A stretch of 42,505 nt of DNA. Source: a virus. The notes under the pieces are model-generated. The model was given only the letters and a program-made list of their open reading frames with translations. It searched no databases and was not told where the DNA came from. Numbering within the stretch: the first letter of the stretch is position 1; every line of letters begins with the position of its first letter. The stretch is taken from IMG/VR virus record IMGVR_UViG_3300023443_000233; one strand, given 5' to 3'. The translations under genes were made by a program, and so were the position numbers. This document shows, in pieces, positions 1 through 42,505 of the stretch.

Positions 1-144
1 CAAAAAAGGGGCAAAATAACTTTATTAGTTCGAACTAGTCGAATTATTTTTGTAATTGAAATTGATCAAAAGGCTGTTATATAGGCATTTTTATACTAGT
101 GTAAATGAGTGTGTCAGACAACCTTAGATGGGCGGCATGATGTA
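1..144. repeat. Terminal redundancy copy 1 (identical to 42362-42505)
   Basis: Base-by-base comparison of the two window ends gave 144/144 identity. Confidence 0.95.
26..43. promoter_or_regulatory. Overlapping dyads TAGTTCGAACTA (26-37) and TTCGA-N5-TCGAA (29-43); candidate core-type integrase site of attP
   Basis: A perfect 12-bp palindrome and an overlapping 5+5 inverted repeat lie in the non-coding region downstream of int, between GGGGCAAA repeats. Confidence 0.35.
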
Positions 145-152
145 GTTATAAT

Positions 153-190
153 AAAAGAACCTCTATTTATAGGGGTTCTTTTGTTTGTTT
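153..190. terminator. Bidirectional rho-independent terminator downstream of int
   Basis: Stem 153-163 pairs with 172-182 (AAAAGAACCTC / GGGGTTCTTTT, one G-U pair) around an 8-nt loop. T-runs follow on both strands. Confidence 0.7.
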
Positions 191-210: not shown

Positions 211-229
211 GGGGCAAAAAAGGGGCAAA
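211..229. repeat. 19-nt direct repeat GGGGCAAAAAAGGGGCAAA (other copy 42358-42376); candidate integrase arm-type sites
   Basis: Exact 19-nt match. Each copy holds two GGGGCAAA units. This copy abuts the int stop codon (230-232). Confidence 0.5.
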
Positions 230-1369
230 TTACAAATTGTTTAATCGATCGATAACCTGTTCTTTAGATTTTTTGGTCACGTGATTATAAATTGATAAAG
301 TCGTGTTGGCATCGGAATGTCCGACTCTCTCCATTATGGTTTTTAAAGGAAGATTCAATTCAGCTAGTAAAGAAATATGACTATGTCTGAATATGTGAGA
401 GGATAAGTTTTTATTCCATTTTAGTTCGTCTTGAACTCTATGCAGTACCATATTAAAGCTATGGAGAGACAACGGGGTACCTCTAGATGATTTAAATATA
501 TAATCCTCGTTACTTTGAAAGCCGAATACTAAAGAGTTGTGTTCAATGATTTCATTAACAATTTTTACTGCTCTATTAGGCAAAGAAACTATTCTTTTAG
601 AATAGATATTTTTAGGTGAAGTTTTTACAGCATCTGCCATTTTTAAGAAAGAATAGTCTAATGTGCCGTTAATATCCAAAGTACTCCCGTCAAAGTCCTT
701 TACTTGTAATGCCTGTAACTCTCCGTATCTTAGGCCTGTTAAATATAACAATTCTGCAATGTTAGCGTGCAATAATCTTTTAGTAGATTTTCTCATATAT
801 ACAAGCAACTCTGTCATTTCGCTTTGATCAAGGTATTTTTCATCCATGTTCTTTTTTCTTTTTTCTTCTTCAGCTTTTTTTCTTTGAATTTTGACATTCA
901 GCGCTAGATTTTGTTTAATATACTTTTTCTCAACAGCATAATTCAACATGATTGAAAGGGTCGTCTTGGTCTGTTTCGTATAATTCAAGGATAGGTCACC
1001 GAAAGTATACATTTTTTCTGTAATATTACGAATCATATTCTCGTCTATATTTCGAACAAGAACATCGTCAGAAATAACTTTTTGAATATGTTTCATCATC
1101 TTTGGAACTTTGGTCCAGCTTGTTCTTTTTACATGTTGTTGGTAATAAACAAACCACTCTTCGTAAAGCTCCTTGAAAGTGATGTCAGATTTATCATAAT
1201 TACTCAAAGCTTCCTCTATTTTTTTGTCTAATATTTTCTGTGCATTCTTCCAGGCTCTGGAAGAATCACTTGTTAGAACAGTACTTGTCTTTTTCCATTT
1301 TTCGGTATAGGGATCTTTGTATCTTTCTACAAACTTATATCTTCCGTTGCCTAAAGATTCGCTCCACAT
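230..1369 (-). CDS. int: Tyrosine recombinase / phage integrase
   Basis: 379 aa. The C-terminal catalytic signature is present: LTGLRYGEL, HIFRHSH, VGHSD and IYNH (R..HxxR..Y). Located at the end of the lysogeny module next to the att-like region. Confidence 0.95.
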   Translation of the reverse strand: MWSESLGNGRYKFVERYKDPYTEKWKKTSTVLTSDSSRAWKNAQKILDKKIEEALSNYDKSDITFKELYEEWFVYYQQHVKRTSWTKVPKMMKHIQKVISDDVLVRNIDENMIRNITEKMYTFGDLSLNYTKQTKTTLSIMLNYAVEKKYIKQNLALNVKIQRKKAEEEKRKKNMDEKYLDQSEMTELLVYMRKSTKRLLHANIAELLYLTGLRYGELQALQVKDFDGSTLDINGTLDYSFLKMADAVKTSPKNIYSKRIVSLPNRAVKIVNEIIEHNSLVFGFQSNEDYIFKSSRGTPLSLHSFNMVLHRVQDELKWNKNLSSHIFRHSHISLLAELNLPLKTIMERVGHSDANTTLSIYNHVTKKSKEQVIDRLNNL

Positions 1370-4018: not shown

Positions 4019-4759
4019 ATGAACACGCCACAAATTTTTAGCTTCGAACAAAACCAAGTTCGGACGTTTCTGAAAAATGATATTCCGTATTTCGTGGCAA
4101 ACGATGTTGCCAAAACCTTGGGATACAGAAATCCAAGCGACGCAACTAACAAACATTGCAAGAAAGCCTTGAAAACGTGGGGTAGCGATTCGCTAGGTCG
4201 TCGCCAATCATTCAAAGTTATTCCAGAATCGGATGTTTATCGTCTAATTATCAAATCTAACCTACCAAGTGCAGAAAAATTTGAAGCTTGGGTAATGGAA
4301 GAAGTCCTTCCAACAATCAGAAAAACAGGAAGCTACACAAACGTTCCTCAAAATTTCGCTCAGGCATTGCGACTAGCAGCTGACCTAGAAGAAAAGAATC
4401 AACTACTCGAGCAGCAGATCGCTGAATATGAACCGAAAATCAGTTACCTAGATATGATCCTTTCATCAAAAGATACAGTAGCAACGTCTCAAATCGCAGC
4501 AGATTACGGAATGTCGGCAATCGCACTGAATAAATTGCTTAATGAGTTAGGTGTTCAGCATAAAGTCAGTGGTCAATGGATTCTGTACCGCAAACACATG
4601 AACCAAGGATACACAAAATCGCACACAAGCGAGATTCCAAAAGCTGATGGCGGCGTAAAAGTTGTGATGAATACTAAATGGACGCAAAAAGGTCGTGTCT
4701 TCATTTACAACTTATTAACTGCAGAGGGTTACTATCCTCAAATGGATCTACTGGATTAA
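4019..4759 (+). CDS. Phage antirepressor (Bro-N plus KilAC-type C-terminal domain)
   Basis: 246 aa. The N-terminus FVANDVAKTLGY ... ESDVYRLIIKSNLPSAEKFEAWV is typical of Bro-N. The C-terminus VATSQIAADYGMSAIALNKLL is typical of KilAC. RBS GAGGAGG is upstream. Confidence 0.9.
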   Translation: MNTPQIFSFEQNQVRTFLKNDIPYFVANDVAKTLGYRNPSDATNKHCKKALKTWGSDSLGRRQSFKVIPESDVYRLIIKSNLPSAEKFEAWVMEEVLPTIRKTGSYTNVPQNFAQALRLAADLEEKNQLLEQQIAEYEPKISYLDMILSSKDTVATSQIAADYGMSAIALNKLLNELGVQHKVSGQWILYRKHMNQGYTKSHTSEIPKADGGVKVVMNTKWTQKGRVFIYNLLTAEGYYPQMDLLD

Positions 4760-39418: not shown

Positions 39419-40399
39419 ATGACAATCCAATCAGTACACGCAGGACATGGCGGAAAGAAAAACGGAAATGCATGGACAGATCCAGGAGCGGTAGGCAACG
39501 GTTATAAAGAAGCGGATGTAGCGCGTACAATCACCGATTTAATGGTCAAGAAAACTGGCGCAAAAAACGTTACCGACAATACTAGCACGACATCAAATGG
39601 GATTATCAACAATGTAGCGGCGAACATCAACAAATGCGCTGACGGTTGGCAAATTTCTAACCACTTGAATGCCTTCAACGGAAAAGCTACGGGCGTGGAA
39701 GTCTTATATGGTTCAGCAAGCAATAAAGCAACAGCTGCTAAGGTATCTGCCGCAATTGCCAAAACATTAGGTTTAGTTGATCGTGGCGCCAAAGATGGCT
39801 CTTGGCTGGGAATCGCTCGTAACTCGGGATCAGGTAAAAAAGTCCTGTTGATCGAATGGGGATTTATCGACAACGCATCCGATATGAAAGCTTTATTCGC
39901 TAAAATGGATGCAGCAGTTAATGCGGCGCTGGCTGTGTTCGGATATTCTGCAAATTCATCTAGCAACAACAATGAATCCACAAGCAAGCCGGCTGCTCCA
40001 ACAAGTTTTAAAGTAGGAGACAAGGTGAAAATCACTGATGCGCTATACAAGGATAGTACAGGCGCTGGTCGGTCGACTGCTAGTCGCGGTAAAACTGGCA
40101 CAATCAAGCGTGTGGTCAGCGGTAACAAACCATATTTGATTGATAGCCTGGGTTGGGCCCACAAGAACGATATTCAACTGGCTACCAGCTCAACTACAAA
40201 CGCTACTAAAAAAGTAGGCGATACAGTAACAGTGCAAAGTCATGCCACTCAATATCAAACCGGGCAAAACATTCCTACGTGGGTTAAAGGTAAGAAGTAT
40301 AAAATCAAACAGATTAAATCCGTTAACCAATCTAAATCTAAAAAAGCATACTTGCTGGACGGAATCAATTCTTGGTTCTTGGAGCAAGATGTTAAGTAA
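39419..40399 (+). CDS. Endolysin: N-acetylmuramoyl-L-alanine amidase (Amidase_3) with two SH3-like wall-binding repeats
   Basis: Catalytic pattern HAGHGG ... DPGAVG ... NHLNAFNGKATGVEVLY ... LIEWGFIDN. There are two C-terminal repeats, each starting (F/K)KVGD. Confidence 0.95.
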   Translation: MTIQSVHAGHGGKKNGNAWTDPGAVGNGYKEADVARTITDLMVKKTGAKNVTDNTSTTSNGIINNVAANINKCADGWQISNHLNAFNGKATGVEVLYGSASNKATAAKVSAAIAKTLGLVDRGAKDGSWLGIARNSGSGKKVLLIEWGFIDNASDMKALFAKMDAAVNAALAVFGYSANSSSNNNESTSKPAAPTSFKVGDKVKITDALYKDSTGAGRSTASRGKTGTIKRVVSGNKPYLIDSLGWAHKNDIQLATSSTTNATKKVGDTVTVQSHATQYQTGQNIPTWVKGKKYKIKQIKSVNQSKSKKAYLLDGINSWFLEQDVK

Positions 40400-40406
40400 C
40401 ACAAAT

Positions 40407-40438
40407 CCCCCTTACTCGTTTGAGTAGGGGACTTTTTT
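40407..40438. terminator. Bidirectional terminator between the endolysin and the convergent accessory gene
   Basis: CCCCCTTACTC pairs with GAGTAGGGG (one bulge), followed by ACTTTTTT. Confidence 0.7.
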
Positions 40439-41072
40439 ATTTAATTCTACTGTATTGAGCATTGAAATTTTCTTGAGTTAAAATTGCTACACGCTTTATT
40501 TTTTTTATAGACGCAGTGATATTATCAATGTCATCTAGATATCTTTTGTATAAGAACCACTTTGGAATTGGACCAACAGTACTTACATCAACTTTTTCTA
40601 TTAACTTACCGGCAACTTGACTTACGTATGAACGAGTAGGAGTAACATAAAATTGGTTTTCAGTAAATTCAAAAATCGGATGTGCTGTTCCAACGCCAGA
40701 ATGAATTTGACTATATATAAATCCGCCGTTTGAGTTGTATCTTAAATCAAAACCTTGCAATTCAGGCTGATATGCTCTTCCATCAACATATCTTGTAATA
40801 AGTAACATTTTTACTTCAATGTCCAATGAATCATAAGAAAAAACACTATCTAATCTATCCAACTCATTTTTAGTGAAAGTATTGTCATTTTCTAAAAAAT
40901 TATAGTAATCGTTAATCTTCTTTGCGTTAGCCAAACTCATTTTTAATATATCTGTTTCTCCTCTCCGATATTTGTTTATATTTTGGCTGGTTATGCCTGT
41001 GTATTCCTCAATTTTTGATGTTGGGATATTTGATGATAATAATTCTCTTATGTTTTCCAAAATCTGATCCAT
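40437..41072 (-). CDS. HTH protein with a C-terminal domain of unknown function (accessory gene)
   Basis: 211 aa. The N-terminal XRE-like HTH is IEEYTGITSQNINKYRRGE. The remaining roughly 150 aa are unrecognised. It has its own promoter and RBS AAGAGGTGA. Confidence 0.8.
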   Translation of the reverse strand: MDQILENIRELLSSNIPTSKIEEYTGITSQNINKYRRGETDILKMSLANAKKINDYYNFLENDNTFTKNELDRLDSVFSYDSLDIEVKMLLITRYVDGRAYQPELQGFDLRYNSNGGFIYSQIHSGVGTAHPIFEFTENQFYVTPTRSYVSQVAGKLIEKVDVSTVGPIPKWFLYKRYLDDIDNITASIKKIKRVAILTQENFNAQYSRIK

Positions 41073-41101
41073 TTAAATCACCTCTTAATTATTTTAAATA
41101 C

Positions 41102-41130
41102 ATAATATCAGAAACTTCAGTTTCTGTAAA
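41102..41130 (-). promoter_or_regulatory. Sigma-A-type promoter TTTACA-17-TATTAT with dyad CAGAAAC-N4-GTTTCTG in the spacer
   Basis: On the minus strand the -35 is at 41130-41125 and the -10 at 41107-41102. The dyad spans 41109-41126. It lies about 30 nt upstream of ATG 41072. Confidence 0.6.
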
Positions 41131-41200
41131 GTTATAAAAATACGAATTTAAGTGTTTTTGGAAATTATAGTTTCTTAAAGGTGGCGAGAAAACAATAATT

Positions 41201-41467
41201 TTACCTTGAAAACTCTCTTCTAGCTGCTTCAAACTCAATCATAATCTTCGTCTTACCAATCACCGAATACTTCTTCACAACAAATTGTTTCCTACTATTA
41301 TACTCACCAGCAACCACGATCTGCATTCCTTCGTCTACATCAGCTAAAAAGTTTAAGCTGTGTGCTGCAATTAAACAATTCACTCCATCAAGCGAGAAAC
41401 GCACTAAAGGGATTTTCGCCATCTTCAACACACGTATCTTCGATACAGTACCTTTCAATGATTTCAT
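41201..41467 (-). CDS. OB-fold-like small protein (4th gene of the LexA-box operon)
   Basis: ATG 41467 lies 8 nt after GGAGG. The pattern LKGTVSKIRVL ... VRFSLDGVNCLIAA ... DEGMQIVVAGEY ... FVVKKY resembles tRNA_anti/DnaE-type OB domains. Confidence 0.6.
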   Translation of the reverse strand: MKSLKGTVSKIRVLKMAKIPLVRFSLDGVNCLIAAHSLNFLADVDEGMQIVVAGEYNSRKQFVVKKYSVIGKTKIMIEFEAARREFSR

Positions 41468-41654
41468 TACAATCGCCTCCATAGCGTTGTACATAATAGC
41501 GACAATCCGTTTTACCTAAAGTGACAACAACATAAAACTCGACACATTTTGCGCCGTATAAAGCTTCCTGTGACTCAGAAATACTGTACGGAAAATCATT
41601 TATAAACTCAGAGAAAGATAGGTAGCCCTGCTCATATTGACTGATTATGTTCAT
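41388..41654 (-). CDS. Hypothetical protein (3rd gene of the LexA-box operon)
   Basis: ATG 41654 lies 1 nt after the upstream TGA. The 3' 80 nt overlap the next gene out of frame. Confidence 0.5.
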   Translation of the reverse strand: MNIISQYEQGYLSFSEFINDFPYSISESQEALYGAKCVEFYVVVTLGKTDCRYYVQRYGGDCNEIIERYCIEDTCVEDGENPFSAFLA

Positions 41655-41655
41655 A

Positions 41656-41955
41656 TCAGTTACCGCCGGGCCTATACTTTGTGTTAGGATCGTATTTTCT
41701 AAGAATCTTGTTTTGAGTCCTAACGTGATCGAACAGATAATTTTCACCGTCTATTTTAAATACAAAAGCCAACTCTTCCGAATAATGACTATAGCTGATG
41801 GGTACAGTGAAATAGGGTTTCCCAAAATTTTCCATTGTCCTAACAAACTGGTCATACATGAAATGTGCTGGACCCATCCTCTCGATAAACTCGTAGTAAT
41901 ATCTTTCTAATGCGTAGGTTCTTTGATGCGCTAATGGTATTTGCATATCAATCAC
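41656..41955 (-). CDS. Hypothetical protein (2nd gene of the LexA-box operon)
   Basis: 99-aa ORF starting 3 nt after the upstream stop. Confidence 0.65.
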   Translation of the reverse strand: MIDMQIPLAHQRTYALERYYYEFIERMGPAHFMYDQFVRTMENFGKPYFTVPISYSHYSEELAFVFKIDGENYLFDHVRTQNKILRKYDPNTKYRPGGN

Positions 41956-41957
41956 TC

Positions 41958-42287
41958 CTATTCCATTTCGACATCAGCAAGAGAATCTGACAGTACTTCA
42001 AACAGATTTCTACTTTCCATAAATTTAAGCCAATCATTGTAAGGGTCTAATGATTGACTATTTGGAATCTTATCCATATTTTTAACAGTCTGATAGATAT
42101 TTTGTGCAGCTTGATCCCACATACCGTTAATTGCTTTGTTAACTTTTTTATCGTTCCACTTAGCCTTTCCGGAACGCAGTTTATTCTTAGCAATTTGGAA
42201 TTCCTCGGCTTTTTGCATAAATACTTCGTAACCGGATAGACGGTTTTTCAAAAGGCTTTTAAAATCATTATATTTCAATTTGACCAC
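41958..42287 (-). CDS. Hypothetical helical protein (1st gene of the LexA-box operon; the start may be TTG 42278)
   Basis: 109-aa ORF. GAGGAG abuts GTG 42287 and lies 9 nt from TTG 42278. Confidence 0.7.
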   Translation of the reverse strand: MVKLKYNDFKSLLKNRLSGYEVFMQKAEEFQIAKNKLRSGKAKWNDKKVNKAINGMWDQAAQNIYQTVKNMDKIPNSQSLDPYNDWLKFMESRNLFEVLSDSLADVEME

Positions 42288-42309
42288 TCCTCTTGTTTAA
42301 TTCTTCTTC

Positions 42310-42338
42310 AGTATACGAACGTTTGTTCGTTTTGTAAA
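42310..42338 (-). promoter_or_regulatory. Sigma-A promoter TTTACA-17-TATACT with a perfect LexA (Cheo) box CGAACAAACGTTCG in the spacer
   Basis: On the minus strand the -35 is at 42338-42333 and the -10 at 42315-42310. The box at 42316-42329 matches CGAAC-N4-GTTCG exactly. Confidence 0.75.
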
Positions 42339-42357
42339 GGGATTAAAGAAAGAATAG

Positions 42358-42376
42358 GGGGCAAAAAAGGGGCAAA
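42358..42376. repeat. 19-nt direct repeat GGGGCAAAAAAGGGGCAAA (other copy 211-229)
   Basis: Exact 19-nt match, 214 bp from the other copy on the circular map. Confidence 0.5.
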
Positions 42377-42505
42377 ATAACTTTATTAGTTCGAACTAGT
42401 CGAATTATTTTTGTAATTGAAATTGATCAAAAGGCTGTTATATAGGCATTTTTATACTAGTGTAAATGAGTGTGTCAGACAACCTTAGATGGGCGGCATG
42501 ATGTA
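42362..42505. repeat. Terminal redundancy copy 2 (identical to 1-144)
   Basis: 144/144 identity with the window start. The repeat runs to the window edge, so its true length is unknown. Confidence 0.95.

What the first reader, a model, noticed from the sequence alone, without database searches (positions are those of the whole stretch)
41201..42338. Perfect Firmicutes LexA box inside a consensus promoter driving a 4-gene operon of unknown function, far from the immunity region
Read on the minus strand, TTTACA (42338-42333), a 17-nt spacer and TATACT (42315-42310) form a near-consensus promoter. The spacer carries CGAACAAACGTTCG (42316-42329), an exact match to the Bacillus/Listeria-type SOS box CGAAC-N4-GTTCG, so bound LexA would occlude RNA polymerase. 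I found no second full box by eye anywhere in the window, including the CI/Cro switch. Downstream lie four tightly packed minus-strand ORFs (42287 down to 41201). Their junctions are a 2-nt gap between ORFs, a TGA-n-ATG junction and an 80-nt overlap. I recognise none of them except an OB-fold-like last gene. The phage's own switch is a CI-like repressor plus an ImmA protease, and how that pair senses DNA damage is not evident from the sequence. The cassette is therefore either the SOS input to induction or an SOS-triggered accessory, toxin or defence module expressed from the lysogen. A precedent for the first reading is the LexA-repressed trans-acting antirepressors of Gifsy phages and Tum of coliphage 186. 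I know of no described equivalent for this gene set.
Basis: partly seen in the sequence, partly recalled or inferred. Interest (0 to 1): 0.8.

Follow-up and report, generated by a model that had tools for sequence, protein, structure and literature searches.

The report
LexA-controlled SOS gene cassette beside attP
An Enterococcus temperate phage carries, next to its attachment site, a four-gene operon that the host DNA-damage repressor LexA very probably keeps silent; two of its genes turn out to be regular companions of error-prone DNA polymerase genes in related bacteria, so it looks like a polymerase-less DNA-damage accessory module rather than the phage's induction switch.

Summary
CGAACAAACGTTCG (42329-42316, minus strand) lies in the 17-nt spacer between TTTACA and TATACT and abuts the -10. 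It is the only exact box in the window (0.02 expected by chance). The same architecture, TTTAC[A/T]-N3-[C/A]GAAC-N4-GTTCG-TATAAT, heads 75 of 82 related loci.

Two corrections. The window is a terminally redundant attP-form contig (1-144 = 42362-42505). The cassette therefore lies about 250 nt downstream of int, across an attP core at the 3' end of groEL. It is far from the switch only once integrated. The genes are also not orphans. P2 is DUF5960, the family of the last gene of the streptococcal S24-repressor-umuC-yolD-orf SOS cassette (phi1207.3/Tn5253 type). P3-P4 follow a UmuC-like polymerase, a YolD-like gene, or UmuC-YolD-DUF5960-SRAP in relatives. A boxed DUF5960-P4 pair also sits in non-prophage neighbourhoods in several Enterococcus species.

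Best reading: a LexA-repressed, polymerase-less offshoot of the Gram-positive UmuC/YolD damage-tolerance module, carried as a phage moron. The antirepressor reading is poorly supported. Molecular functions remain unknown: DUF5960 has no structural match, and P4 is a basic protein with a generic OB-like fold. I class it as a new variant of a known kind, of moderate interest.

The parts
42310..42338 (-). Promoter with embedded operator: -35 TTTACA (42338-42333), LexA/Cheo box CGAACAAACGTTCG (42329-42316), -10 TATACT (42315-42310).
   Evidence: The same architecture is conserved in 75 of 82 related loci.
41958..42278 (-). P1, 106 aa (TTG start behind AGGAG), phrog_7823, function unknown. It is an optional first gene of the cassette.
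   Evidence: Relatives lie in the lysogeny modules of other phages. P1 heads 5 of 80 distinct cassette units.
41656..41946 (-). P2, 96 aa, a DUF5960 (PF19385) family protein. This is the same family as the last gene of the streptococcal umuC-yolD SOS cassette.
   Evidence: Pfam 36.5 bits against a cutoff of 24.1. phi1207.3 Orf6 matches DUF5960 at 9e-32. AF2 pLDDT is 92, with no structural match in PDB or BFVD.
41388..41654 (-). P3, 88 aa, acidic (pI 4.05), no family assignment. In phage-type cassettes it always sits immediately upstream of P4 and overlaps it.
41201..41467 (-). P4, 88 aa, basic (pI 10.0), a small beta-barrel with OB-like topology. It is the conserved core gene of all the LexA-box cassettes.
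128..144 (+). attP core ATGGGCGGCATGATGTA, identical to the last codons of host groEL (repeated at 42489-42505 by the terminal redundancy). It separates int from the cassette.
   Evidence: The attL junctions L149, L150, L152 and L153 show a roughly 542-aa ORF ending ...MGMGGMM* in the core. attR junctions are in L001, L005 and L006.
157..184 (.). Hairpin plus T-run between int and attP on one side and the cassette promoter on the other. By my reading it is a bidirectional terminator, so the cassette is its own transcription unit and groEL regains a terminator at attL.
   Evidence: Sequence read. This is an inference; the stretch was not scanned with the terminator tool.
230..1369 (-). Tyrosine integrase. 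On the circular map it is the gene immediately upstream of the cassette.
40437..41072 (-). P5, 211 aa, with an N-terminal HTH (HTH_60-like, phrog_1529) and its own promoter-like site at 41130-41102. It is an optional neighbour and probably not part of the LexA operon.
   Evidence: It follows P4 in only a few relatives (L037, L101).

Best explanation
The feature is a LexA-repressed promoter driving a polycistronic accessory ('moron') operon, P1-P2-P3-P4. The operon lies just inside attR of an Enterococcus gallinarum/casseliflavus-type prophage that integrates at the 3' end of groEL.

Proposed mechanism:
- In the lysogen, host LexA sits on a box that fills the promoter spacer and touches the -10, so RNA polymerase is excluded.
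- DNA damage leads to RecA-stimulated LexA self-cleavage, and the operon is transcribed.
- The short or overlapping gene junctions suggest translational coupling.

The cargo is a polymerase-less derivative of the Gram-positive UmuC/YolD SOS damage-tolerance (mutagenesis) module.
- P2 (DUF5960) is the family of the fourth gene of the streptococcal cassette.
- P3-P4 is the enterococcal tail of operons that in relatives begin with a UmuC-like Y-family polymerase, a YolD-like protein, or UmuC-YolD-DUF5960-SRAP.

I infer that the products, a basic OB-like protein P4 with acidic P3 and DUF5960, act on damaged or single-stranded DNA. They may alternatively act on the RecA/Y-polymerase machinery encoded elsewhere in the host. 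I do not think they act on the phage repressor.

What rests on sequence and comparison: the operator-promoter architecture and its conservation, the gene families, and the gene linkages. What is inferred: LexA binding, damage inducibility, and the biochemical role.
For: (1) The box and promoter are confirmed and the box is unique in the window.

(2) Phylogenetic footprint. Of 82 distinct P4 loci with at least 700 nt upstream, 75 have a [C/A]GAAC-N4-GTTCG box within one mismatch. All of them share the TTTAC[A/T]-N3-box-TATAAT layout, whatever the first gene is. L092 and L095 have the box at the head of a longer operon. A Latilactobacillus phage P4 homologue has TTGACT..AGAACGTACATTCG-TATAAT. 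The E. faecalis umuC-yolD operon carries the identical 14-mer, CGAACGTTTGTTCG, in the same layout.

(3) Gene linkage, from 80 distinct box-to-P4 units:
- DUF5960-P3-P4: 24
- DUF5960-P4: 16
- YolD-like-P3-P4: 13, plus 3 variants
- P4 alone: 6
- P1-DUF5960-P3-P4: 5
- UmuC-containing: 4
The UmuC-containing units include box-UmuC-P3-P4 (L068) and box-...-UmuC-YolD-DUF5960-SRAP-P3-P4 (L092). Pfam confirms IMS polymerase, SRAP and DUF5960 there.

(4) phi1207.3 Orf6, annotated as similar to Tn5253 orf72, is the last gene after UmuC and the YolD-like gene. It matches DUF5960 at 9e-32.

(5) The enterococcal YolD-like proteins match SPbeta YolD by hhalign (probability 79%, E 1.6e-5).

(6) The boxed DUF5960-P4 pair lies in neighbourhoods with usp and other cellular genes and no phage genes in the ORFs read or annotated. 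This holds for E. raffinosus, avium, pallens and alishanensis genome contigs and for an E. gilvus replicon filed as a plasmid.

(7) P4 is basic (pI 10.0) with a beta-barrel of OB-like topology; P3 is acidic (pI 4.05).

(8) Literature. YolD family proteins are the proposed UmuD counterparts and are SOS-induced with their polymerases in B. subtilis and S. aureus (PMC6511836).
Against: - The window itself has no Y-family polymerase and no YolD-like gene. Whether the host has one was not checked.
- Only 4 of 80 distinct units contain a polymerase, so the linkage to translesion synthesis is by association, not by any demonstrated interaction.
- Neither DUF5960 nor P4 has a significant structural or sequence match to a protein of known function. 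The P4 model has only medium confidence (pLDDT 71).
- LexA binding and inducibility are untested. The presence of lexA in this host rests on general knowledge of enterococci, not on a test here.
- P1 has a different distribution, in the lysogeny modules of other phages, and may have an unrelated function.
Confidence: 0.55

Rival explanations
1. SOS input to induction. One or more cassette proteins would be a LexA-controlled trans-acting antirepressor, or an activator of the ImmA protease, that inactivates the CI-like repressor, as Tum does in coliphage 186 or the Gifsy antirepressors do.
For: The phage repressor is a short HTH_3 protein without an S24 cleavage domain, paired with an M78 ImmA-like protease. 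Some damage sensor is therefore needed. The cassette is the only LexA-boxed unit in the genome. P1 relatives lie inside lysogeny modules, for example CI-ImmA-P1-Int in vB_ElaS_B1578.
Against: - The boxed DUF5960-P4 pair occurs where no prophage, CI or ImmA is seen in the ORFs read or annotated.
- P3-P4 and DUF5960 share operons with UmuC, YolD and SRAP.
- No cassette protein matches antirepressor families in Pfam, PHROGs or NCBIfam.
- Cargo behind the conserved promoter is swapped freely, and one phage keeps only a deletion remnant (L003). That is unexpected for an essential induction gene.
- In Listeria CI-like plus metalloprotease phages, RecA expression restored induction in a non-cleavable lexA3 background without SOS gene induction (PMC9043618).
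Confidence: 0.07
2. SOS-triggered toxin, growth-arrest or anti-phage defence module. The acidic and basic small proteins would form a toxin-antitoxin-like pair, or a division or replication inhibitor, released when LexA is cleaved.
For: The location is typical of morons, between the lysis genes and att. The proteins are small, tightly coupled and of opposite charge (P3 pI 4.05, P4 pI 10.0). Rare frameshift fusions of DUF5960 and P4 hint that the two proteins work together. SOS-controlled toxins and division inhibitors exist in other bacteria (my own knowledge).
Against: No PADLOC hit for any of the five proteins. None has a transmembrane segment of the kind seen in YneA or SosA-type division inhibitors (sequence inspection). 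The consistent operon partners are DNA-damage-tolerance genes (UmuC, YolD, SRAP), not defence genes.
Confidence: 0.12
3. Modulator of the SOS signal itself. P4 with P3 or DUF5960 would bind ssDNA or RecA filaments and tune RecA activity, as DinI, RecX, PsiB or AriS do. That would feed back on both the host SOS response and RecA-dependent prophage induction.
For: P4 is a basic protein with an OB-like fold. Control by LexA is conserved. As I recall, plasmid-borne enterobacterial umuDC-like operons (imp) carry a small DinI-like first gene. Phage proteins that damp RecA are documented in Firmicutes (AriS, PMC9043618).
Against: There is no detectable similarity to DinI, RecX, PsiB or ANT/KilAC. This reading overlaps with the best explanation rather than excluding it.
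Confidence: 0.15
4. Decaying remnant. The cassette would be what is left after loss of the polymerase from a umuC operon, still behind its old promoter but no longer functional.
For: Polymerase-containing versions exist in sister phages (L068, L052, L092). One locus (L003) is a clear deletion remnant that keeps the promoter.
Against: The polymerase-less forms are the majority and hold intact ORFs across many species and elements. P4 is 55-96% identical across species. The 80-nt P3/P4 overlap keeps both reading frames open in the relatives examined. A two-gene chromosomal version is conserved with its box across several species.
Confidence: 0.05

Closest known systems
Streptococcal SOS mutagenesis cassette (hdiR-umuC-ORF3-ORF4 of S. 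uberis; Tn5252/Tn5253 and phage phi1207.3 versions)
   Same: It is a damage-controlled operon on mobile elements of Lactobacillales. Its last gene in phi1207.3 (Orf6, annotated as similar to Tn5253 orf72) is DUF5960, the same family as window P2. Enterococcal relatives of the window cassette carry UmuC, YolD-like and DUF5960 genes in the same order.
   Different: The window has no polymerase and no YolD-like gene. Its repressor is host LexA acting on a Cheo box, not a cassette-encoded S24 HdiR-type repressor. It adds P3-P4 and P1, which were not seen in the streptococcal cassette. I could not read Varhimo et al. 2007, so equating its ORF4 with DUF5960 is an inference from the phi1207.3 annotation.
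SPbeta yolD-uvrX (yolE), B. subtilis yqjX-yqjW and S. aureus LexA-regulated YolD/UmuC genes
   Same: These are prophage-borne or chromosomal LexA-box operons for a Y-family polymerase and its small partner. A box with one mismatch lies upstream of SPbeta yolD. YolD family proteins are proposed UmuD counterparts and are SOS-induced (PMC6511836). The S. aureus precedent shows a yolD homologue under its own LexA box, away from the polymerase.
   Different: The window carries neither gene. It carries proteins (DUF5960, P3, P4) not discussed in that literature. DUF5960 is unrelated to YolD (hhalign probability 0.1%), although the two alternate in the same cassette slot.
LexA-controlled antirepressors (Tum of coliphage 186, Gifsy phage antirepressors)
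   Same: A host-LexA-repressed promoter in a prophage whose own repressor lacks a self-cleavage domain.
   Different: No sequence relationship was found. The core genes also occur outside prophages and alongside translesion genes. See the first rival explanation.
GIL01 (LexA plus gp7) and Listeria AriS/MpaR circuits
   Same: Firmicute temperate phages whose biology is wired to host LexA or RecA (PMC9043618).
   Different: In GIL01, LexA is the lysogeny repressor itself. Here the switch region has no box, and LexA would control only an accessory operon.

Membership tests
Bacillota LexA (Cheo-box) regulated promoter | Palindrome CGAAC-N4-GTTCG | tested here: met
   There is an exact match at 42316-42329. 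It is the only one in the window, with 0.02 expected by chance.
Bacillota LexA (Cheo-box) regulated promoter | The operator overlaps core promoter elements, so the bound repressor occludes RNA polymerase | tested here: met
   The box fills the 17-nt spacer and abuts the -10.
Bacillota LexA (Cheo-box) regulated promoter | The site is conserved upstream of orthologous genes in related genomes | tested here: met
   75 of 82 loci have the box in the same architecture. It is also present in a Latilactobacillus phage and in the E. faecalis umuC promoter.
Bacillota LexA (Cheo-box) regulated promoter | The host encodes LexA; LexA binds the site; transcription is induced by DNA damage | not testable with these tools
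   The host is inferred to be Enterococcus gallinarum/casseliflavus. That enterococci encode LexA is general knowledge and was not checked here. An EMSA and RNA-seq are needed.
Gram-positive UmuC/YolD SOS mutagenesis cassette | Y-family (IMS/UmuC-like) polymerase gene in the operon | tested here: not met
   None of P1-P5 matches IMS. The polymerase is present in sister cassettes L068, L052 and L092.
Gram-positive UmuC/YolD SOS mutagenesis cassette | YolD-like small subunit gene | tested here: not met
   The window has no YolD match. A YolD-like gene replaces P2 in 13 or more sister cassettes.
Gram-positive UmuC/YolD SOS mutagenesis cassette | DUF5960 gene (the Tn5253 orf72 / phi1207.3 Orf6 family) | tested here: met
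   P2 matches PF19385 at 36.5 bits against a cutoff of 24.1. Orf6 matches at 9e-32.
Gram-positive UmuC/YolD SOS mutagenesis cassette | Control by an SOS repressor | tested here: inconclusive
   A LexA box is predicted and conserved. There are no binding or expression data.
LexA-controlled phage antirepressors (Tum / Gifsy type) | Sequence or domain relationship to known antirepressors | tested here: not met
   No hit in Pfam, PHROGs, NCBIfam or PADLOC for P1-P4. The phage's ANT/KilAC protein is elsewhere, at 4019-4759.
LexA-controlled phage antirepressors (Tum / Gifsy type) | Confined to prophages and linked to a cognate repressor | tested here: not met
   The boxed DUF5960-P4 pair occurs where no prophage genes are seen in the ORFs read or annotated.
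LexA-controlled phage antirepressors (Tum / Gifsy type) | Binds and inactivates the phage repressor | not testable with these tools
   Genetics or biochemistry is needed.
OB-fold single-stranded nucleic-acid binding proteins (P4) | Five-stranded beta-barrel with a helix between strands 3 and 4 | tested here: inconclusive
   The AF2 model has pLDDT 71 and a strand-strand-strand-helix-strand-strand order. The best PDB matches are ribosomal L2 and S12-type OB domains, at E about 1e-2 and TM about 0.45. The depositors of phage EG-TP1 noted an 'SsDNA-binding protein' structural match for its homologue.
Known anti-phage defence systems (PADLOC) | Any component matches a defence-system model | tested here: not met
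   No hits at E <= 1.

The most novel reading that the evidence does not exclude
DUF5960 and the OB-like protein P4 (with acidic P3 in phages) form a previously unrecognised, polymerase-independent member of the Enterococcus LexA regulon. It would be a small ssDNA- or RecA-directed complex that phages, plasmids and chromosomes exchange as a boxed cassette. In lysogens it would tune the RecA signal, and therefore both damage survival and the timing of ImmA-dependent prophage induction. This reading would also give a function to the unexplained fourth gene of the streptococcal SOS mutagenesis cassette.
Probability: 0.15. Interest if true: 0.75.

Novelty: new variant of a known kind. Interest (0 to 1): 0.5.

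Why it matters
LexA-controlled error-prone polymerase cassettes on mobile elements drive damage-induced mutagenesis, and with it antibiotic resistance, in Gram-positive cocci. Their small accessory genes have stayed functionally blank; I found no paper that mentions DUF5960.

This locus shows that DUF5960 and a basic OB-like protein are kept under the same tight LexA operator in many Enterococcus prophages and chromosomal loci, even when no polymerase is present in cis. That separates them genetically from the polymerase. It also offers a compact, testable system, one promoter and three or four small genes, for asking what these proteins do. They might help a host polymerase, protect or replicate damaged phage DNA, or modulate RecA.

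The finding also corrects an attractive but probably wrong idea, that this cassette is the damage sensor of CI/ImmA-type enterococcal phages.

Tried and rejected
- Family searches for P1-P5 in Pfam, PHROGs, NCBIfam and PADLOC gave only DUF5960 (P2), unknown-function PHROGs (P1, P4, P5) and a weak HTH (P5).
- Foldseek of the high-confidence DUF5960 model against PDB and BFVD found nothing significant. Profile searches of DUF5960 and P4 against PDB sequences also found nothing.
- I tested whether DUF5960 is a divergent YolD, since the two alternate in the same slot. It is not: hhalign probability 0.1%.
- Exhaustive HMMER of P4 against 1.84 billion representatives found only 47 clusters and no informative fusion. 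One 3944-aa hit is a coiled-coil artefact.
- DUF5960-P4 'fusion' proteins (P0202, P0203) look like frameshift joins of adjacent ORFs, so they are weak evidence of interaction.
- Megablast of the cassette against deposited phages gave almost nothing. Protein-level searches were needed.
- Varhimo et al. 2007 could not be read. Literature searches for an Enterococcus LexA regulon or for DUF5960 found nothing usable.
- My script for quantifying dual-frame conservation of the P3/P4 overlap captured only 8 pairs, so I do not rely on it.
- I considered that the promoter might be host DNA outside the prophage. I rejected this because the att core lies about 150 nt further out, and the promoter travels with the phage in attP-form contigs.
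Full report
**1. The observation**

On the minus strand the sequence reads TTTACA (42338-42333), aaa, CGAACAAACGTTCG (42329-42316), TATACT (42315-42310). The palindrome fills the 17-nt spacer and touches the -10.
- It is the only exact CGAAC-N4-GTTCG in the 42.5-kb window, and also the only GAAC-N4-GTTC.
- Dinucleotide-preserving shuffles give 0.02 exact boxes on average.
- The promoter is the best sigma-70-like site in 40300-42505, at 10 of 12 matches.

From relatives and ribosome-binding sites I place them as follows:

| Gene | Coordinates | Note |
|---|---|---|
| P1 | 42278-41958 | TTG start; ATG at this position in relatives |
| P2 | 41946-41656 | |
| P3 | 41654-41388 | |
| P4 | 41467-41201 | overlaps P3 by 80 nt |

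**2. Where the cassette really sits**

Window 1-144 is identical to 42362-42505. The contig is therefore terminally redundant and represents the excised, attP form of the phage.

On the minus strand the order is: CI-like HTH_3 repressor (3257-2874), M78 ImmA-like protease (2861-2505), a DUF5067 protein, tyrosine integrase (1369-230), about 250 nt, then the LexA promoter and cassette.

Contigs with different flanks converge at TACATCATGCCGCCCAT. Four attL junctions show a roughly 542-aa ORF ending ...MGMGGMM*, which I read as GroEL from its sequence. It ends inside ATGGGCGGCATGATGTA (window 128-144).
- The phage therefore integrates at the last codons of groEL.
- It supplies a replacement stop codon and what I read as a terminator hairpin (157-184).
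- After integration the cassette lies about 150 nt inside attR, reading inward.

'Far from the immunity region' is true only of the integrated map.

**3. Is the box meaningful?**

Searches with the promoter pattern and with P1 and P4 in IMG/VR, and with a P4 alignment in one genome per species, gave about 140 loci.
- Of 82 distinct P4 loci with at least 700 nt upstream, 75 carry a [C/A]GAAC-N4-GTTCG box within one mismatch.
- All 75 share the layout TTTAC[A/T]-N3-box-TATAAT.
- Two more (L092, L095) have the box at the head of a longer operon.

The box stays about 40-50 nt upstream of whichever gene comes first, while the cargo changes.

A Latilactobacillus phage P4 homologue has TTGACT..AGAACGTACATTCG-TATAAT. 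The E. faecalis umuC-yolD operon has the identical 14-mer in the same layout.

This is strong comparative evidence for a functional operator. Binding and inducibility remain untested.

**4. What the genes are**

*P2* is DUF5960 (PF19385), at 36.5 bits against a cutoff of 24.1. No paper in the library mentions this family.
- Its AlphaFold model is confident (pLDDT 92; two helices then four strands).
- It has no significant match in PDB or BFVD.

*P4* has no Pfam family.
- It belongs to a narrow family of 47 clusters at 50% identity. Named hits are almost all Enterococcus, with occasional Listeria and Latilactobacillus members.
- It is basic (pI 10.0).
- It models at medium confidence (pLDDT 71) as a small barrel with OB-like strand order.
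- Its best PDB matches are ribosomal OB domains at E about 1e-2.

*P3* is acidic (pI 4.05) and matches no family.

*P1* is phrog_7823. In other phages it sits inside lysogeny modules.

PADLOC finds nothing for any of the five proteins.

**5. The company they keep**

Eighty distinct box-to-P4 units have these architectures:

| Architecture | Units |
|---|---|
| DUF5960-P3-P4 | 24 |
| DUF5960-P4 | 16 |
| YolD-like-P3-P4 | 13, plus 3 variants |
| P4 alone | 6 |
| P1-DUF5960-P3-P4 (the window type) | 5 |
| Containing a UmuC-like polymerase | 4 |

- L068 reads box, 454-aa IMS-family polymerase, P3, P4.
- L092 reads box, two small ORFs, IMS polymerase, YolD-like, DUF5960 (1e-27), SRAP (4e-33), P3, P4.
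- The YolD-like proteins fall below Pfam's cutoff. They share the KW(I/M)GFFLSEHT motif with the gene annotated YolD-like in phage phi1207.3, and they match SPbeta YolD by hhalign (probability 79%, E 1.6e-5).
- DUF5960 and YolD alternate in the same slot but are unrelated.

In phi1207.3 the order is S24 repressor, two small ORFs, UmuC, YolD-like, Orf6. The record annotates this cassette as similar to Tn5253 orfs. Orf6 matches DUF5960 at 9e-32. P2 therefore belongs to the family of the last, uncharacterised gene of the streptococcal SOS mutagenesis cassette. From memory, that cassette was described as hdiR-umuC-ORF3-ORF4 in S. uberis; the paper was not available.

The boxed DUF5960-P4 pair also lies next to universal-stress-protein and other cellular genes. 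No phage genes appear in the ORFs I read or in the annotation. This holds for E. raffinosus, E. avium, E. pallens and E. alishanensis contigs, and for an E. gilvus replicon filed as a plasmid.

**6. Mechanism**

- Operator and promoter layout: seen directly and conserved.
- Inferred: LexA occludes the promoter in the lysogen, RecA-stimulated LexA cleavage releases it, and one polycistronic, translationally coupled message is made.
- Function, inferred by association: the cassette is a polymerase-less offshoot of the UmuC/YolD damage-tolerance module.
- Its products most likely act on damaged or single-stranded DNA, or on the RecA/Y-polymerase machinery encoded elsewhere.
- There is a precedent for separation. 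The S. aureus yolD homologue sits apart from its polymerase, yet both are LexA-regulated (PMC6511836).
- I put the whole statement at about 0.55. The regulatory part alone is much more likely than that.

**7. Rivals**

The antirepressor or induction-input reading is weak, at about 0.07.
- The core genes occur outside prophages and are linked to translesion genes.
- They have no antirepressor homology, and cargo behind the promoter is freely swapped.
- One phage keeps the promoter in front of a deletion remnant (L003).
- The phage already carries a Bro-N/ANT-KilAC protein.
- In Listeria CI-like plus metalloprotease phages, RecA rather than LexA-regulon induction is what induction needs (PMC9043618).

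A toxin, arrest or defence module (0.12) and a RecA/SOS modulator (0.15) are not excluded. A decaying remnant (0.05) fits poorly with the wide conservation of intact genes.

**8. Novelty and verdict**

LexA-boxed prophage operons for Y-family polymerases and YolD are known, so the kind is known. New here are:
- a conserved, polymerase-less cassette built around DUF5960 and an OB-like protein;
- its spread across Enterococcus prophages and chromosomal loci under one stereotyped operator;
- its position beside a groEL-targeting attP.

I class it as a new variant of a known kind, with interest 0.5. Its favoured interpretation is not supported, but its fallback, an SOS-triggered accessory module, is.

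Noticed in passing
window 1-144 and 42362-42505: There is a perfect 144-nt terminal redundancy. The contig is the circular, attP form of the phage, not a prophage with host flanks. The repeat ends exactly at the outer edge of the att core.
   Followed up: yes
window 128-184; L149, L150, L152, L153 (attL); L001, L005, L006 (attR): The phage integrates into the last codons of host groEL (core ATGGGCGGCATGATGTA). It supplies a replacement stop codon (TAG at 143-145) and what looks like a hairpin terminator for groEL.
   Followed up: yes
window 211-232 and 42358-42379: Two copies of GGGGCAAAAAAGGGGCAAA(T/A)TA flank the attP region, one at the int stop codon and one just upstream of the LexA promoter. 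They may be integrase arm-type sites.
   Followed up: no
window 41388-41467: P3 and P4 overlap by 80 nt, and both frames stay open in the relatives examined. P3 ends in an acidic tail with a recurring (D/N)PF motif (e.g. EDGENPFSAFLA) that is loosely reminiscent of SSB C-terminal tails. P3 is acidic (pI 4.05) and P4 basic (pI 10.0).
   Followed up: partly
P0202, P0203 (homologues of the pair at L134 5751-6261): Predicted 166-168-aa proteins join DUF5960 to P4 in one frame. They look like one-base frameshift joins of the adjacent genes and are seen on few contigs.
   Followed up: partly
L003 10996-11024 and downstream: The same LexA promoter is retained in front of a deletion remnant: a YolD-type start codon fused to the last roughly 20 codons of P4.
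   Followed up: partly
L002 1062-1090 and downstream: The same promoter drives an entirely different trio of proteins (92, 56 and 103 aa). The last aligns weakly with P4 (23% identity).
   Followed up: partly
window 4019-4759: A Bro-N plus ANT/KilAC protein lies in the early lytic operon. [quoted passage not shown]
   Followed up: no
window 40437-41130: A 211-aa protein with an N-terminal HTH (phrog_1529) follows P4 behind its own promoter-like site with an extended -10 (41130-41102). It follows P4 in only a few relatives.
   Followed up: partly
L147 2807-3001 (Lacticaseibacillus paracasei plasmid pE1-1): A P1-like gene lies divergent from a gene whose product carries the YolD-type KKWLGWILSDHS motif. 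Two LexA-like boxes sit between them, one abutting TATAAT. PGAP names this protein, and an E. faecium plasmid gene next to a P4 homologue, 'DNA-directed RNA polymerase subunit beta/omega', which looks like a misannotation.
   Followed up: partly
L145 4451-6205 (E. faecalis contig deposited as 'phage Efs 1-1-1'): A LexA-boxed umuC-yolD operon lies in what looks like chromosomal context, with an MFS-like transporter upstream and a usp gene downstream. The record is probably host DNA rather than phage.
   Followed up: no
window 41540-41556: A weak terminator-like hairpin lies inside the P3 coding sequence on the minus strand. It is probably a chance match.
   Followed up: no
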